From: Eledone cirrhosa
Lineage: Eukaryota
Direction of reading: 5' to 3'
Assembly (NCBI GenBank): GCA_964016885.1
Contig: OZ024742.1
Coordinates: 264,616,001-264,680,000, forward strand
Length of the DNA: 64,000 nucleotides
Below, in pieces: positions 1,518 through 6,331 of this stretch (its first letter is position 1; the number at the start of each line of letters is the position of its first letter). Both the position numbers and the translations under genes were made by a program. The notes beneath the pieces are model-generated. The model had not been told where the DNA came from, did no database searches, and worked only from the letters and a program-made list of their open reading frames with translations.

Positions 1518-2001
1518 TATATATATACATATATATATATATATATACATATATATATATATATATACATATATATATATATATATATATACATATATAT
1601 ATATATATATACATATATATATATATATATACATATATATATATATACATATATATATATATACATATATATATATATATATACATATATATATATATAT
1701 ATATACATATATATACATATATATATATATATATATACATATATATATATATATATATATATATATATATATATATATATATATACATATATATATATAT
1801 ATATACATATATATATATATATATACATATATATATATATATATACATATATATATATATATATATATATATACATATATATATATATATATATATACAT
1901 ATATATATATATATATATACATATATATATATATATATATATACATATATATATATATATATATACACATATATATATATATATATATATATATATATAT
2001 A
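1517..2001. repeat. ~485-bp (TA)n microsatellite with periodic CA interruptions
   Basis: Seen directly; it explains the YI-repeat ORFs at 1489-2015. Confidence 0.98.
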
Positions 2002-2378
2002 CGATATATTAACAAATGGAAACTATATTTATAAAACTATATTTATTTCATTATACATATTTCAAGGACACAAAGTTAAATTATGGTGTGCTTTCATCAG
2101 ATAAAATATAATATAGATCAGTTTTATAAATATTGACATACTCTTAAAGAATGTCAATATTTATAAAACTGATCTATATTATATTTTATCTGATGAAAGC
2201 ACACCATAATTTAACTTGGTGTCCTTGAAATATGTATAATGAAATAAATATGGTTTTATAAATATAGTTTCCATTTATTAATATATCGTATTTTTACTCC
2301 AATAATTTGTTGAGTGCTTTATATCAGTTACAAAAATATTTACTTGTTGTATCCCAACAATTTAAATAGAACTTCTAC
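2000..2378. mobile_element. Fold-back element 1 (arms ~2000-2139 / 2151-2290, 11-nt loop), probable inverted PLE pseudo-LTR
   Basis: Near-perfect ~140-bp inverted arms, flanked by (TA)n on both sides; contains CTGATGA-stem-GAAA. Confidence 0.7.
2181..2245 (+). ncRNA. Hammerhead-ribozyme-like motif (type I, weak stem I)
   Basis: CTGATGA(2190-2196), stem II aagcacacc/ggtgtcctt, GAAA(2227-2230), then TATGTA. Stem I pairing is poor. A mirror copy lies on the minus strand of the left arm. Confidence 0.45.
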
Positions 2379-2404
2379 ATATATATATATATATATATAT
2401 ATAT

Positions 2405-3452
2405 CATCACCATCATCATCTTCGTTTAACGTCCACTTTCCACGTTAGCATGGGTTAGACGGGAGTTGTGTTGTCCCACCTGAGGCAAGGTTGGTCGGGT
2501 GACCGTGTCTCGCTCATATAGGACTATCTGGCAAGTTTTCTACGGCTGGATGCCCTTCCTAACACCAACCACATTTACAGTGTGGAACTGGGAACTTTTT
2601 ACCGTGTTACCTACACGGCCACATTACAGCATGGACTGTCTGTTTTTTTTTTCTTGTGACCCCTACACGATCTCGATCTCGATCTCATTTATCTCATTTA
2701 TTTGGACTGGATGTTGTGGTACCACTGGGTGGTGTTGGTCGGTGTGGGAGGATAGGGTAGGGGTAGTGGATTGGGGTGTATATTTGGTTAAGAGGTGCCT
2801 ACTGACTGTAGATTTCGCTTTGTACATAGGCAAGGCGGGTCTTCTGTATTACTGCATAGCGCCAAAGATCTCGGTCCAGTGACATTGTCTTCGAGAGGTG
2901 CAAGTGTGTAAGGTCGGAATTTATCAGATTGTCCCAGGTTTTTCTGGGTCTACCTACTCCGTAACTACCATCAATTTTGATCGCCCTGCACTTTTTTATA
3001 CAGCTGTCGTCTTCCATGCGCATCACGTGGCCATACCAACGTGGTCTTCTCTTGAGTAAACAGCATCTGATCCCTCTTATTCCTAATTTCTCACTTAATT
3101 CATTTATGCTTTGCCGTTCACGTATATTACTATTGCACATCCAACGGAGCATGCAAGCTTCGTTCCTCTCCAGTCTGCGTATATCCTCTGCACACAATGC
3201 CCATGTCTCACTGCCATGTTAGATTGCTGTTCGTATGCAGGCATCATACAATCTGCCTACAGCGGTATAAACTCTCTGAACTTTTTCCATCCCGTTCTGA
3301 CTCTAGCTACTGTACTTTCAGAACACCCTCCACCATTGCTGATTTCATCACCCAGGTAACGGAAAGTGTCTACTATTTCTATAGAACCATCTGGGCAATA
3401 GAAGGGACTAGTATCCTGTGGACACTTGCTACCTATTGCACCTGAGCATCGG
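2405..3452 (-). mobile_element. 5'-truncated RTE LINE (family A): RT C-terminus, 3' UTR and (GAT)n tail
   Basis: ORFs 3257-3538 and 2799-3197 (VDTFRYLGD..ARVRTGWKKFRE; RRPRWYGHVMRM..GRPRKTW); (CAT)n on + at ~2405; (TA)n flanks. Confidence 0.9.
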
Positions 3453-3494
3453 CCACACACACATATATATATATATATATATATATATATATAT

Positions 3495-4374
3495 ATATCA
3501 AGATAAGCAGAACAAGTAAAATTCAACCAATTTTTCAAAGTAAATCAAAATTAATATACAATTAAAATTAATCAAAATTAAAAAATATAATATAAATATT
3601 TACCTATTCAAATGGCCCTAACTGTACAGTTTCACTTTGCAAAACATTAGATATCACGTAGATATTAATGGAAAAGCAAAGATCATCAGAGAAGCATTTT
3701 CCTATCCTAGGGTTAAAAACCCCAGGAACAACAAAATATATGACCTCACTCCAACTAATACAGGTCTGAAAGGTCGTGAAAGTGACCCATAAATACGTTG
3801 GTGTATAGTGAAGGCGGGAAATCATAGACTAGCCGTCTATGATCGCTACCAAAAAAGATTTTTAGTAACTAAATAGAACGACAAGATTTTTCTCTACTTA
3901 CTGGAGAACCTCAGATATATATTAACCTTATTCAATATTCTCCAGTAAGTAGAGAAAAATCTTGTCGTTCTATTTAGTTACTAAAAATCTTTTTTGGTAG
4001 CGATCATAGACGGCTAGTCTATGATTTCCCGCCTTCACTATACACCAACGTATTTATGGGTCACTTTCACGACCTTTCAGACCTGTATTAGTTGGAGTGA
4101 GGTCATATATTTTGTTGTTCCTGGGGTTTTTAACTGTACAGTTAGGTCCATTTGAATAGGTAAATATTTATATTATATTTTTTAATTTTGATTAATTTTA
4201 ATTGTATATTAATTTTGATTTATTTTTAAAAATTGGTTGAATTTTACTTGTTCTGCTTATCTTGATATTAAGTTCTGGTATATCAAATTATTACCATAGA
4301 ACCACCTTAAATCATAGACACACTATATATTTCCTGGGGTACATTGTACCCTCAGATATATATTGACCTTATTC
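3495..4374. mobile_element. Fold-back element 2 (arms 3495-3908 / 3938-4268) with terminal redundancy, probable PLE pLTR or retrozyme-like element
   Basis: Long inverted arms; the left arm has an extra 83 nt (3632-3714); loop 3909-3933 is repeated directly at 4350-4374; (TA)n flanks. Confidence 0.75.
3614..3695 (-). ncRNA. Type I hammerhead ribozyme motif
   Basis: Minus strand reads gcttct-CTGATGA-t ctttgc...gcaaag t-GAAA-CTGTACAG-TT-agggcc. Stem III is palindromic (ACTG TA CAGT), the cleavage triplet is GUU, and stem I has 4 bp including G-U pairs. Confidence 0.6.
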
Positions 4375-4404
4375 TATATATATATATATATATATTAATA
4401 TATA

Positions 4405-4655
4405 TCATCATTTCATTTTACGTCCACTTTTCCCTGCTTGCAAGGGTGGGAACTGATTCTGGCTTGATTTCTAATTTCCTAACACCAACCTCATTTACAG
4501 TGAGTGCTGGGGTGCTTTTTTGCCCTGGCGCCTCCACAACCACTTTGCAGTGGAATGATAGGGACCCCAGTCCCTATCATCTCATTTCTACAGCTGAGTA
4601 AACTGGCGCAATGTGAAATAAAGTGTCTTTCTCAAGGAAACAACACATCACCGAG
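4405..4655 (-). mobile_element. SINE with CORE-like body and RTE-derived 3' tail (5'-truncated)
   Basis: Reverse complement matches 48300-48566 (ttccttgag..actttatttcacattg..ccagtttactcagctgtagaaatgag); the tail is shared with the RTE 3' UTR. Confidence 0.75.
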
Positions 4656-4682
4656 TATATATATATATATATATATATAAAA

Positions 4683-5215
4683 TAAAATAAAATAAAATAA
4701 AATAAATAAGTCAAATGTTTAAAATTTGGCTTCGTTTATTACTGCTATATATATTTCGGTGTCAGCCATCTTTGGCTCTGACCTCTTCATGCAGTCCGAA
4801 TTAGTGTGGTAGAGACGAGTACACATGTTGTTGAGGTGTTTAACTTTGTCAATACTCTGACATGCCCAGTTCCTGGTTGGGTTGTTGTTTCACTGAGATA
4901 TGATTCCAGTTCCTCAGTGAAACAACAACCCAACCAGGGACTGGGCATATCAGAGTATTGACAAAGTTAAACACCTCAACAACATGTGTACTCGTCTCTA
5001 CCACACTAATTCGGACTGCCTGAAGAGGTCACAGCCAAAGATGGCTGTCACCGAAATATATATAGCAGTAATAAACGAAGCCAAATTTTAAACATTTGAC
5101 TTATTAATTTTATTTTATTTTGCATTACTCCGGAGTAACCAAACCAACCTGCGCACTTCGTCGAGTGCCCCAATCTGCGTACTGAGGTGTTGGTATACAA
5201 CCAACATATACTCAA
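4683..5215. mobile_element. Fold-back element 3 (arms ~4683-4897 / 4913-5121, 15-nt loop) plus a hairpin-rich extension; probable inverted PLE pLTR
   Basis: ~210-bp inverted arms with few mismatches; (TA)n flanks; contains a canonical minimal hammerhead. Confidence 0.8.
5015..5069 (+). ncRNA. Minimal type I hammerhead ribozyme; predicted cleavage after 5064
   Basis: actgc-CTGAAGA-ggtcacagcca aaga tggctgtcacc-GAAA-T ATAT A-TA-gcagt. Perfect 5-bp stem I, long stem II with one mismatch, palindromic loop III, AUA triplet. Confidence 0.85.
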
Positions 5216-5258
5216 TATATATATATATATATATATATATATATATATATAAATATAT

Positions 5259-6331
5259 ATATTGTTATACTTGGGGAGGGTCATATTTGTGTAATATTGC
5301 CAAAATTAATAACAGAACACACTCACTGTTTGGTTGGTTTTCCCTTCTGTGTCTTTTATATCGGTGGTTAATTTAATTTATTCGGTTCTCAATGTTACCA
5401 TTGACTGACCAACGGTCAAAAATACAGATACAATATAGACACAAACACATATATATAGTCTATCAAAGTTCTTTTGTTACACATCTGCAACATCGTCTGT
5501 GGTGCTATTATGTTTCCTCCCGTTGCATTGTATGCCTATGCTATCTTTATTTAGTCTGTTTATTTATTTATTTATTTATTTATTTATTTGTTTATTTTTT
5601 GTCTTCTCTGCGTTTGCGTGTGTGTATAGTGTTTTGTTTGATGTGTGTTCGTATTTGGGTGACTGTGTATTGGTTAATGTATTCTATCTTAGTTTACTAG
5701 TGTGTGTTTATATGTGTTTGTTGTTATTGTGCTTGTGTATTTATTTATTTATTTATTTATTTATACTTCTCTTAGGTCAGTGTTGTTTGTTTGGGTGTTG
5801 TTATTCCATTCGTTTTTTCTGTTTAGCCTTGGCCTTCTAAGTTCTATTTCGCTGGCCTCTCTGATTTGCCTATCTGCTGGGTTATTTCTATGTTTAGATA
5901 TTATTCTAATGTCTATGTTACCGTTTTTTATAGTTACCCCAGTCTTGGTCTATCCTTTCACCTATGCTACGAGCAGTCTCGCCTATGTATGTTGTTGTCA
6001 TGTTTCTGCAAGTACCCTCTGTACATCTTATGCTATAGACTACGTTTCTAGATTTACAGTTTATCCAGGGGTTTACTTTACATATGATACATTTCCTATT
6101 AGTACAGTGGGTTTTCTTAAAAGGGTAGGTTTTACTGATCAGGGATTTTATGGTGGTTCCTGGACCGAATAAATTAAATTAACCGATATAAAAGACACAG
6201 AAGCGAAAATCAACCAAACAGTGAGTGTGTTCTGTTATTAATTCTGGCAATATTACACAAATATGACCCTCCCCAAGTATAACAATATTTGTTTCGATAC
6301 ACGATTTCATTTCAAAAACCTCGCAAAACTA
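5259..6331 (-). mobile_element. 5'-truncated Penelope-like element: GIY-YIG endonuclease remnant, 3' pLTR and inverted pLTR copy
   Basis: Inverted repeats at 5259-5386 / 6164-6288 enclose a minus-strand coding remnant; (TA)n on both sides. Confidence 0.85.
5761..6163 (-). pseudogene. PLE GIY-YIG endonuclease domain (internally disrupted)
   Basis: Translates as CTNRKCIICKVNPWINCKSRNVVYSIRCTEGTCRNMTTTYIGETARSIGERI, then after a frame break DRQIREASEIELRRPRLNRKNEW. Confidence 0.85.

What the first reader, a model, noticed from the sequence alone, without database searches (positions are those of the whole stretch)
2000..6331. Four sequence-unrelated fold-back elements in 4.3 kb, all in (TA)n, three carrying hammerhead motifs
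Seen: palindromes at 2000-2290, 3495-4268 and 4683-5121, plus an inverted-repeat-bounded GIY-YIG remnant at 5259-6288. They share no obvious sequence but share architecture: (TA)n, inverted arm, short spacer, arm plus extension, (TA)n. CUGANGA/stem II/GAAA cores occur in the first three. Known: PLE pseudo-LTRs carry minimal type I hammerheads with palindromic loop III, and PLE insertions often have an inverted 5'-truncated pLTR. Inference: several microsatellite-targeting PLE or retrozyme families have piled into one hotspot, leaving non-coding ribozyme hairpins that look like MITEs but moved via RNA.
Basis: partly seen in the sequence, partly recalled or inferred. Interest (0 to 1): 0.75.

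Follow-up and report, generated by a model that had tools for sequence, protein, structure and literature searches.

The report
Penelope-type retroelement fold-backs in TA repeats
Four mirror-image DNA elements packed into one TA-repeat tract are insertions of four different Penelope-like jumping-gene families, each likely copied from RNA onto both cut DNA ends at once, and each carrying a predicted, untested self-cutting hammerhead RNA motif; this is a clear example of a known kind, not a new one.

Summary
Four unrelated inverted-repeat elements lie between (TA)n runs at 2000-6331. Complete type-I hammerhead motifs occur in the first three. The fourth holds a decayed copy of a core that its family conserves.

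- Element 4 is a decayed copy of a reverse transcriptase plus C-terminal GIY-YIG Penelope-like element (PLE).
- Elements 1-3 are abundant non-coding families with the same insertion anatomy: fixed 3' ends in (TA)n, variable 5' truncation, and a 43-106 nt 'tail' at one end only.
- The fold-backs do not move as units. Their centre junctions occur once (elements 1 and 2) or twice (element 3) in the 3-Gb genome, so each was made at insertion. This rules out MITE-like DNA transposons.
- For family 1, tail-less and tailed ends are about equally common (932 against 1013). In 20 of 21 paired ends on one contig, exactly one end has the tail.

This fits published PLE biology: both target strands are cut and extended, and reverse transcription starts at two internal sites.

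Rfam models do not score the ribozymes, no RNA data were available, and self-cleavage is untested. This scan had already noted similar Penelope-type hammerhead repeats elsewhere in this genome. Verdict: new member of a known kind.

The parts
1517..2001 (.). Long imperfect (TA)n array, the left flank of the cluster
   Evidence: Tandem Repeats Finder.
2000..2142 (-). Element 1: inverted, tail-less copy. Its outer end abuts (TA)n. It carries a complete hammerhead motif at 2108-2044 on the minus strand.
   Evidence: 97% identical to the direct arm. (descriptor hit).
2148..2290 (+). Element 1: direct copy, 5'-truncated. Hammerhead motif at 2182-2246, with predicted cleavage between 2238 and 2239.
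   Evidence: Full family units begin about 50 nt further upstream with CCGGGAGC.
2291..2378 (+). Element 1: 88-nt tail, present only on the direct copy and ending at (TA)n 2379-2404. Contains a small hairpin, TTGTTG-TATCC-CAACAA.
   Evidence: Genome-wide there are 1013 tailed and 932 tail-less ends.
3495..3908 (-). Element 2: inverted, tail-less copy, made of segments A, the 80-nt segment and B. The hammerhead motif lies at 3693-3616 on the minus strand, with predicted cleavage between 3620 and 3619.
3909..3937 (+). Element 2 centre: the last 25 nt of a preceding unit's tail, then 4 nt. This shows that the direct copy starts inside an upstream tandem unit of the template.
   Evidence: tail positions 82-106 match 3909-3933 at 96%.
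3938..4268 (+). Element 2: direct copy (segments B and A). It lacks the 80-nt hammerhead segment.
4269..4374 (+). Element 2: 106-nt tail with the hairpin GGGTAC-ATT-GTACCC, ending at (TA)n.
   Evidence: In 11 of 11 family tails, (TA)n follows.
4689..4897 (-). Element 3: inverted, tail-less copy. Its hammerhead core is mutated and the descriptor gives no hit.
4898..5121 (+). Element 3: direct copy, made of 15 nt of upstream element sequence plus the 209-nt arm. Hammerhead motif at 5015-5069, with predicted cleavage between 5064 and 5065.
5122..5213 (+). Element 3: 92-nt tail with the hairpin GTTGGT-ATACA-ACCAAC, ending at (TA)n 5215-5262.
5259..6163 (-). Element 4: inverted, tail-less, 5'-truncated copy of an autonomous PLE. 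GIY-YIG endonuclease remnant at 6163-5921 and 5919-5824. The 3' UTR holds a decayed hammerhead core at about 5499-5472.
6164..6331 (+). Element 4: short direct copy, made of a 125-nt arm (6164-6288) and a 43-nt tail (6289-6331), ending at (TA)n 6332-6383.

Best explanation
The four fold-backs are double-ended insertions of four different Penelope-like-element (PLE) families into one (TA)n tract, each likely made in a single target-primed reverse-transcription event.

Shown:
- Elements 1-3 belong to abundant non-coding families with the same anatomy. These are a roughly 280-nt unit, a roughly 520-nt unit that also forms tandem arrays, and the 3' end of a roughly 1.3-kb element.
- Copies are anchored at the 3' end in (TA)n and variably truncated at the 5' end.
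- Each family has two alternative 3' ends, 43-106 nt apart.
- In fold-backs, the inverted copy stops at the inner end and the direct copy at the outer end, so the tail sits on one side only.

Inferred from published in-vitro work on a lizard PLE (PMC11167929): the endonuclease cuts both strands of the AT-rich target, and each 3'-OH primes reverse transcription at one of two adjacent internal start sites on the element RNA. The two cDNAs run inwards, stop at variable points and are joined. This leaves an inverted 5'-truncated copy without a tail next to a direct copy with a tail.

Predicted: the type-I minimal hammerheads lying 44-125 nt upstream of the inner start site are the pseudo-LTR ribozymes typical of PLEs. 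They would cut multimeric transcripts, probably as dimers or with protein help. Cleavage is untested and may not be needed for insertion.

Families 1-3 are probably mobilised in trans by PLE enzymes. The specific partner was not identified.
For: Element 4 and its family
- The GIY-YIG frame of element 4 has 22,576 first-look candidates in the genome. All 150 scored matches have E of 1e-44 or better, and open frames reach 1104 aa.
- The 1104-aa frame (P0001) aligns collinearly with P0062, which passes Pfam's cut-offs for RVT_1 (2e-10) and GIY-YIG (8.2e-06). The alignment covers the DKSG/DKGG motif, the RT core (RYVDY against RYVDD) and the CX4CXXC plus VVY...YIGET endonuclease.
- At that locus, a head-to-head 5'-truncated second copy lies beside the first.

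Anchoring at the 3' end with variable 5' truncation
- Family 4 hits start at query base 1 and end anywhere from 264 to 905.
- Family 2 copies start at many different points or carry 1.1-1.5 tandem units.
- Family 3 copies are truncated at many points of a roughly 1.3-kb element.

Two alternative 3' ends
- Family 1: 932 tail-less and 1013 tailed ends genome-wide, with 0 matches for the reversed control patterns.
- Family 4: of 24 arm ends, 13 run straight into AT repeat and 11 into the tail.

One tail per fold-back
- Family 1, contig C1: of 21 outward-facing end pairs within 3 kb, 20 are mixed, 1 has no tail on either end, and 0 have tails on both ends. About half would be mixed if the ends were independent.
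- Family 2: 7 of 7 fold-backs.
- Family 3: in 6 of 8 fold-backs the inverted copy stops exactly at the arm/tail boundary.
- Family 4: 8 of 8 pairs that I read off the table.

Each fold-back was made at insertion
- The centre junctions have 1, 1 and 2 exact matches in 3.0 Gb.

(TA)n target
- The 3' flank is (TA)n in 13 of 13 family-1 loci, 13 of 13 family-3 loci and 11 of 11 family-2 loci.

Hammerheads
- Descriptor hits in the window, against an expectation of 0.01-0.05 per simulated window.
- The motif is retained in family copies.
- The family-1 type anchor pattern has 27,523 matches against 0 for the control.
- Helix II covaries: 182 of 230 cells are paired, against 162 +/- 3.8 after shuffling partners (maximum 176 in 1000 shuffles), with several pair types at six positions.
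- A diverged relative of family 2 keeps the fold with different helix II and III sequences (L011).
- All 21 non-window family-4 rows that the pattern picked out read CUGANGA-U-GUUGCA-GAUG-UGCAAC, and 20 of them continue with GAAA. The pattern required most of that sequence, so decayed copies were not counted.

Literature
- PMC8557442 (passages) describes 5'-truncation, partial tandems, an adjacent inverted 5'-truncated copy, a tail often at one end only, and a (TA)n bias.
- PMC11167929 (abstract and whole main text) shows that both strands are cut and extended, and that the two RT start sites bracket the tail.
- PMC4209133 (passages) describes minimal hammerheads in PLE pseudo-LTRs, including pairs 100-700 bp apart on opposite strands.
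Against: - Rfam has no hammerhead match, neither at gathering scores nor at E up to 10, even when only 111 nt around each motif were searched.
- My descriptor was written after I had seen the candidates.
- Pfam finds nothing in P0001 itself at E up to 0.1, so the RT and GIY-YIG assignment is transitive.
- No RNA run was listed and none was laid, so expression, cleavage and RNA circles are untested.
- No autonomous PLE sharing its 3' end with families 1-3 was found. No P0001-like coding sequence lies within the 1.5 kb upstream of the 13 family-3 copies in the loci fetched (L014-L026).
- The palindromes at this locus were not confirmed by long reads. The contigs laid were short repeat pieces.
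- One family-1 pair has no tail at either end.
- Element 3's junction occurs at a second, unlinked locus.
- Element 2's two arms differ by an 80-nt indel.
- The tails of families 1-3 (88-106 nt) are longer than the 30-40 bp described for PLEs.
- Published minimal PLE hammerheads cleave poorly in vitro (PMC4209133), and cleavage was not needed for insertion in vitro (PMC11167929).
Confidence: 0.85

Rival explanations
1. The elements are DNA transposons: TA-targeting MITEs or fold-back elements, or Helitron2/Helentron-type non-autonomous elements whose 5' end is inverted relative to a subterminal 3' sequence, followed by a 3' hairpin.
For: - Long terminal inverted repeats lie in TA dinucleotide repeats.
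- There is an extension with a small hairpin beyond the right arm.
- Family 2 forms tandem arrays, as some rolling-circle elements do. The description of the Helentron ends is recalled and comes from no call.
Against: - Most family copies have no inverted arm.
- The inner junction of the arms differs from locus to locus.
- The window's junctions have 1, 1 and 2 exact matches genome-wide.
- Copies are truncated from the 5' side only.
- Element 4 has the same anatomy and encodes RT plus GIY-YIG.
- No transposase or Rep/helicase was seen in any locus fetched.
Confidence: 0.04
2. Single, ordinary PLE-type insertions were later turned into palindromes at the DNA level. For example, hairpin or cruciform formation in the flanking (TA)n could cause template switching during replication or break repair.
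For: (TA)n tracts are prone to forming cruciforms (established knowledge). The arms are nearly identical.
Against: - A DNA-level duplication has no reason to stop at the arm/tail boundary. Yet the inverted copy ends there in 20 of 21 family-1 pairs, 7 of 7 family-2 fold-backs and 6 of 8 family-3 fold-backs.
- The same boundary serves as the 3' end of about half of all single copies.
- Inverted and direct copies can be of very different length, as in element 4 and.
Confidence: 0.07
3. The palindromes are assembly artefacts, that is, fold-back chimeras of long reads.
For: No long read or contig spanning any of the four palindromes was seen.
Against: - The arms differ by 2-7%, with scattered private substitutions on either arm.
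- There is an 80-nt indel between element 2's arms.
- The tail asymmetry is systematic across hundreds of loci.
- The published PLE anatomy predicts exactly this structure (PMC8557442).
Confidence: 0.03

Closest known systems
Canonical EN+ Penelope-like elements with the CX2-5CxxC linker (Neptune/Nematis type), as described in Craig et al. 2021, PMC8557442
   Same: - RT followed by a C-terminal GIY-YIG domain with a CX4CXXC motif upstream.
- 5'-truncated copies and head-to-head inverted copies.
- An optional tail of about 43 nt at one end.
- Insertion into (TA)n.
- A hammerhead core in the 3' region.
   Different: - The clade was not determined by phylogeny.
- The family's hammerhead has only about 2 bp of helix I and fails my full descriptor.
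- P0001 carries a long Asn-rich insert, and its RT motif reads YVDY in the copy read.
Poseidon PLE of Anolis carolinensis (PAc), in-vitro system of Frangieh et al. 2024, PMC11167929
   Same: - Two adjacent internal RT start sites define the tail.
- Both target strands can prime.
- The target is AT-rich.
- The hammerhead lies upstream of the start sites.
   Different: - That work is biochemistry on one vertebrate element. Here the evidence is genomic footprints in an octopus-like genome.
- Tails of the non-coding families are 88-106 nt here.
- The near-obligate rule of one tail per pair (20 of 21) does not appear in the abstract and main text of that paper, which I read.
Minimal type-I hammerheads of PLE pseudo-LTRs (Cervera and de la Pena 2014, PMC4209133)
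   Same: - Type I topology.
- A long helix II (9-10 bp in elements 1 and 3).
- A short helix I (4-8 bp).
- A helix III of 1-3 bp closed by a palindromic sequence (AUAUAUAU, ACUGUACAGU).
- Motif pairs on opposite strands a few hundred bases apart.
   Different: - Element 1 type has an invariant C.C mismatch at position 4 of helix II.
- Element 2 has a U.U pair at the base of helix II.
- No activity data exist.
- Rfam's models do not score these motifs.
Metazoan non-LTR retrozymes (Cervera and de la Pena 2020, PMC7229834; Li et al. 2026 preprint, abstract only)
   Same: - Non-coding repeats of a few hundred bases that carry a type-I hammerhead.
- Family 2 forms tandem arrays with a period of about 525 nt.
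- They are proposed to depend on PLE enzymes.
   Different: - Families 1 and 3 were seen as dispersed single or fold-back copies, not arrays.
- RNA circles could not be examined.
- The copies here end at PLE-type start sites, not at the ribozyme cleavage site.

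Membership tests
Penelope-like elements (EN+), for element 4 and its family | Reverse transcriptase domain | tested here: met
   P0001 itself has no Pfam match at E up to 0.1. It aligns collinearly (BLASTP 1e-17 and 1e-12) with P0062, which scores RVT_1 at 2e-10, above Pfam's cut-off. The window's own copy retains no RT part.
Penelope-like elements (EN+), for element 4 and its family | GIY-YIG endonuclease fused C-terminally to the RT | tested here: met
   The VVYSIRC...TYIGETARSIGERIDQH region lies at P0001 residues of about 990-1030 of 1104. 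It aligns with the Pfam GIY-YIG region of P0062. The window holds residues 952-1032 and 1052-1083.
Penelope-like elements (insertion anatomy), for all four elements | 5'-truncation, partial tandems, an adjacent inverted 5'-truncated copy, and a tail at one end (PMC8557442) | tested here: met
Penelope-like elements, for elements 1-3 as non-autonomous derivatives | Shared 3' end with, or demonstrated mobilisation by, an autonomous PLE | tested here: inconclusive
   No P0001-like coding sequence lies in the 1.5 kb upstream of the 13 family-3 copies in loci L014-L026. No sequence similarity was seen between the tails of the four families. No systematic search of other PLE families' 3' ends was made.
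Type-I hammerhead ribozyme | Conserved core CUGANGA...GAAA, three helices in type-I order, and H17 not G | tested here: met
   Descriptor hits in elements 1, 2 (relaxed) and 3, against an expectation of 0.01-0.05 per window. Covariation in helix II.
Type-I hammerhead ribozyme | Score above threshold with Rfam's hammerhead covariance models | tested here: not met
   There was no hammerhead match at gathering score or at E up to 10. Published work found PLE minimal variants with structure descriptors instead (PMC4209133, PMC8557442).
Type-I hammerhead ribozyme | Self-cleavage at the predicted site | not testable with these tools
   No RNA run was available. This needs in-vitro transcription.
Metazoan non-LTR retrozymes | Tandem repeats of a hammerhead-bearing unit, expressed as circular RNA | tested here: inconclusive
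   Tandem arrays are seen for family 2 only, for example G000:C3:352307441-352311813 with a period of about 525 nt. RNA circles were not testable.
MITE / fold-back DNA transposon | The whole inverted-repeat unit is repeated with fixed ends and target-site duplications | tested here: not met
   The junctions have 1, 1 and 2 exact matches genome-wide, and the internal structure varies. Target-site duplications cannot be read inside (TA)n.

The most novel reading that the evidence does not exclude
Every fold-back records one coordinated event. A PLE ribonucleoprotein, probably a dimer, cuts both strands of a (TA)n target and primes both arms from one RNA, a multimer or a circle. It uses each of its two reverse-transcription start sites exactly once. 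That is why one end, and only one end, carries the tail (20 of 21 pairs). The tail is then a built-in marker of which strand was primed from which site. This makes the poorly understood second half of PLE integration readable from genomes and testable in the existing in-vitro system.
Probability: 0.45. Interest if true: 0.6.

Novelty: new member of a known kind. Interest (0 to 1): 0.4.

Why it matters
The locus shows the known PLE insertion anatomy unusually clearly: four unrelated families side by side, all built the same way. It shows that many MITE-like palindromes in (TA)n of this octopus-like genome are retroelement products, which matters for repeat annotation. The hammerhead type found in element 1 alone has more than 27,000 exact anchor matches in the genome.

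The one result that goes beyond the papers read is quantitative. Tail-less and tailed 3' ends are used about equally, but within a double-ended insertion they are almost never the same. This suggests that the two priming events are coupled. The idea can be tested in vitro or by a genome-wide census.

Tried and rejected
- Rfam at gathering scores and at E up to 10, on the whole window, on 5.5 kb and on two 111-nt stretches, gave no hammerhead. The sub-threshold microRNA-family hits (mir-934, mir-3747, mir-297 and others) are what perfect palindromes and TA repeats give, and I set them aside.
- Pfam on the window's short frames and on P0001 gave nothing useful.
- The first version of my descriptor missed the motifs because it let the palindromic helix III swallow its own loop. 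It was corrected.
- Sequencing runs: no RNA holder was listed.
- Laying four runs gave only short contigs of repeats. No piece spans a palindrome, so there is no verdict on the local structure. Contigs of runs labelled with other organisms (X5, X7) cover parts of elements 2, 3 and 4, so related genomes probably share these families.
- Helitron/Helentron reading: I considered it early because of the asymmetric inverted end plus 3' hairpin. I dropped it.
- I looked for a coding parent of family 3. Its upstream sequence is a non-coding element of about 1.3 kb with internal repeats.
- I examined L039, where another PLE frame lies near a family-1 copy. The family-1 copy is bounded by its own (TA)n, so this is not evidence of co-insertion.
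- Literature on cephalopods: one search for 'penelope', 'octopus' and 'hammerhead' listed 4 of the 5 papers that hold all three words. I opened two of the four, PMC8557442 (passages) and PMC6962438 (passages). Neither passage set describes these families.

Full report
**What is there**

The stretch 1517-6383 is one TA-repeat tract broken up by insertions. Four of them are large inverted repeats.
- Element 1: arms 2000-2142 and 2148-2290.
- Element 2: 3495-3908 and 3938-4268. The left arm has 80 extra bases at 3632-3711.
- Element 3: 4689-4897 and 4913-5121.
- Element 4: 5259-5386 and 6164-6288, with about 780 bases between them.

The arms are 93-100% complementary. Each right arm runs on into an extension before the next (TA)n: 88 nt (2291-2378), 106 nt (4269-4374), 92 nt (5122-5213) and 43 nt (6289-6331). 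The four share no sequence, and none occurs elsewhere in the window. The other 57.6 kb of the window hold only one inverted repeat longer than 100 nt, at 88%.

**The genome**

The window lies in a 3.0-Gb assembly. The nearest named relative of the element-4 protein is from Octopus vulgaris, at 68% identity. I did not go further into identity.

All four elements are highly repeated. First-look candidates numbered 1210 for element 2, 1121 for element 3, 312 for element 1, 4742 for element 4's DNA and 22,576 for its GIY-YIG peptide. These are not copy numbers.

**Element 4 is a Penelope-like element**

The frame at 6178-5918(-) belongs to a family whose longest open frame seen is 1104 aa (L061). 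Pfam finds nothing in that protein directly. However, it aligns collinearly with a database protein that passes Pfam's cut-offs for RVT_1 and GIY-YIG. The alignment runs through a DKSG motif, the RT core, and a CX4CXXC plus VVY...YIGET endonuclease at the C-terminus. At L061 a second, 5'-truncated copy lies head to head with the first.

Family copies always begin at the same 3' end and stop anywhere between 264 and 905 bases in. This is the pattern of target-primed reverse transcription.

In the window, 5259-6163 is a minus-oriented copy of this kind. It abuts a 168-nt plus-oriented copy (6164-6331).

**The same anatomy in the non-coding families**

- Family 2 has a unit of about 520 nt (segments B, an 80-nt piece, A, then the tail). 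It forms tandem arrays with a period of about 525 nt. It also forms dispersed copies that start at many different points or hold 1.1-1.5 units.
- Family 1 has a unit of about 280 nt, which in most of the 13 loci begins at or within a few bases of CCGGGAGC.
- Family 3 is the 3' end of a non-coding element of about 1.3 kb with internal repeats. No PLE-like coding sequence lies in the 1.5 kb upstream of its copies in the 13 loci fetched.

In all three families, most copies are not fold-backs. Where an inverted copy is present, its inner junction differs from locus to locus. Its outer end, by contrast, is fixed at the arm/extension boundary: 7 of 7 for family 2 and 6 of 8 for family 3.

The 3' flank is (TA)n in 13 of 13, 11 of 11 and 13 of 13 loci of families 1, 2 and 3.

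**The fold-backs are made at insertion**

Exact searches for the window's three centre junctions found 1 (element 1), 1 (element 2) and 2 (element 3) places in the whole genome. A MITE-like unit with a thousand copies at 96-98% identity would give many matches.

The second element-3 locus is on another contig and has different flanks. I leave it unexplained.

**Two 3' ends, one tail per pair**

For family 1, the arm end joined straight to TA repeat occurs 932 times, and the arm end followed by the tail occurs 1013 times. The control patterns gave none.

On contig C1, where both lists are complete, 21 pairs of outward-facing ends lie within 3 kb of each other. Of these, 20 have one tailed and one tail-less end, one has none, and none has two. 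Independent choice would give about half mixed pairs.

For family 4, 13 of 24 arm ends run into AT repeat and 11 into the tail. In the eight head-to-head pairs that I could read's table, one end has the tail and the other does not.

**How this fits what is published**

- Craig et al. (PMC8557442, passages read) describe 5'-truncation, partial tandems, an inverted 5'-truncated copy at the 5' end, a 30-40-bp tail often at one end only, and a (TA)n bias.
- Frangieh et al. (PMC11167929, abstract and main text read) show in vitro that a lizard PLE cuts and extends both strands of an AT-rich target. They also show that reverse transcription starts at two adjacent internal sites whose spacing is the tail.

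The window's elements are what these two findings predict. One strand primes at the inner site and the other at the outer site. The two cDNAs run inward and are joined at an arbitrary point.

Element 2's direct copy begins 29 nt before the unit start, inside the previous unit's tail (3909-3937). Other loci hold more than one unit in the inverted copy (L006 and L012). The template was therefore longer than one unit: a tandem transcript or a circle.

**Hammerheads**

Rfam finds none. A type-I descriptor of my own, written after I had seen the candidates, finds complete motifs in both arms of element 1, in the right arm of element 3, and, with a mismatch allowed at the base of helix II, in the left arm of element 2. 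The expectation is 0.01-0.05 per simulated window. They have the traits listed for PLE minimal hammerheads (PMC4209133, passages): a long helix II, a short helix I, and a helix III of 1-3 bp closed by a palindrome.

The motif is complete in 11 of 13 family-1 loci, in 11 of 13 family-3 loci, and in 6 of 8 family-2 loci that hold the whole 80-nt piece.

An anchor pattern for the element-1 type, which leaves helix II free, matches 27,523 places against 0 for the control. In 23 distinct helix II sequences from 30 loci, 182 of 230 cells pair, against 162 +/- 3.8 after shuffling partners. Two or three pair types occur at six positions, and there is a constant C.C at position 4. These sequences are related to each other, so this is support, not proof.

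Family 4 keeps CUGANGA-U-GUUGCA-GAUG-UGCAAC in all 21 non-window rows that my pattern could match, and GAAA in 20 of them. The pattern itself required most of that sequence. The window's copy has three changes in it.

The motifs lie 44-125 nt upstream of the inner 3' end, as in the lizard element. Activity is untested. The literature reports weak cleavage for such motifs and no need for it in insertion in vitro.

**Rivals**

- DNA transposons and Helentron-type elements are excluded by the variable structure, the unique junctions and the coding content of element 4.
- A later DNA-level duplication does not explain why the inverted copy stops at a site that also serves as a normal 3' end.
- An assembly artefact is unlikely, given the divergent arms and the genome-wide regularity. 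But no long read across the locus was seen.

**Standing**

This is a clear, multi-family example of a known kind of element. Earlier notes of this scan already report Penelope-type hammerhead repeats elsewhere in this genome, including a two-armed one. I tested their ideas only in part: the single-template reading is compatible with my data, and an RNA-editing footprint is absent here.

The near-obligate one-tail rule is the only point that I did not find stated in the papers read.

Noticed in passing
window 51994-52076 (minus strand): One more hit of the hammerhead descriptor, outside the finding. It is weak: helix I of 4 bp, a 32-nt loop II and a 12-nt loop III. It was not examined further.
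   Followed up: no
window 2405-3462 and 4401-4655: Two other insertions lie in the same TA tract. The first is a SINE-like head (catcat...tttaacgtccac) followed by a LINE-like frame on the minus strand (2799-3218). The second is a SINE-like piece. The two share a stretch around 2537-2590 and 4465-4511, seen as joints in laid contigs. Pfam gave nothing for the frames.
   Followed up: partly
L016 / L094 = G000:C8:19863720-19864243: A second fold-back of family 3 has exactly the window's centre junction but different flanks: (CA)n(TA)n on the left. Arm identities within and between the two loci are alike (202-207 of 209). It is either a rare re-copying of a fold-back or a recurrent junction.
   Followed up: partly
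L006 343-385 and 653-695; also L004 935-977 and L057 2830-2788: The flanks of fetched loci hold compact 43-nt type-I hammerheads with palindromic helix III (ACGCGU, ACUAGU). In L006 two identical ones lie 310 nt apart, which looks like a separate tandem retrozyme-type family.
   Followed up: no
L030, L037 and L010 (flanks of family-1 and family-2 copies): Other loci also stack different PLE-type families in one TA tract. A family-3 tail lies directly before a family-1 copy (L030). A family-4 tail lies before a family-1 copy (L037). An element-1-like hammerhead pair lies beside a family-2 copy (L010). Such pile-ups seem common.
   Followed up: partly
L019, L020 and L021 (3' flanks of family-3 copies): Runs of 8 to 22 A lie between the end of the tail and the (TA)n in some family-3 copies. 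The cause is unknown; untemplated addition or a variant template end are possibilities.
   Followed up: no
L050, L052, L057 and the flank of L037: Some family-4 tails run on for about 15-20 more bases (AATTCATCGCCG...) before the TA repeat. This hints at a third, more distal end.
   Followed up: no
L061 4561-7872 (minus), protein P0001 residues of about 140-300: The full-length PLE frame carries a long Asn-rich low-complexity insert between its N-terminal part and the RT region.
   Followed up: no
L014 and L015 = G000:C14:9438751 and 9425448: Two identical family-3 loci lie 13 kb apart on one contig. This is probably a segmental duplication, so I treated them as one event.
   Followed up: no
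window 3632-3711 against 4131/4132: The 80-nt hammerhead segment is missing from element 2's direct arm, between two AAC triplets. No other family copy's table shows this deletion.
   Followed up: partly
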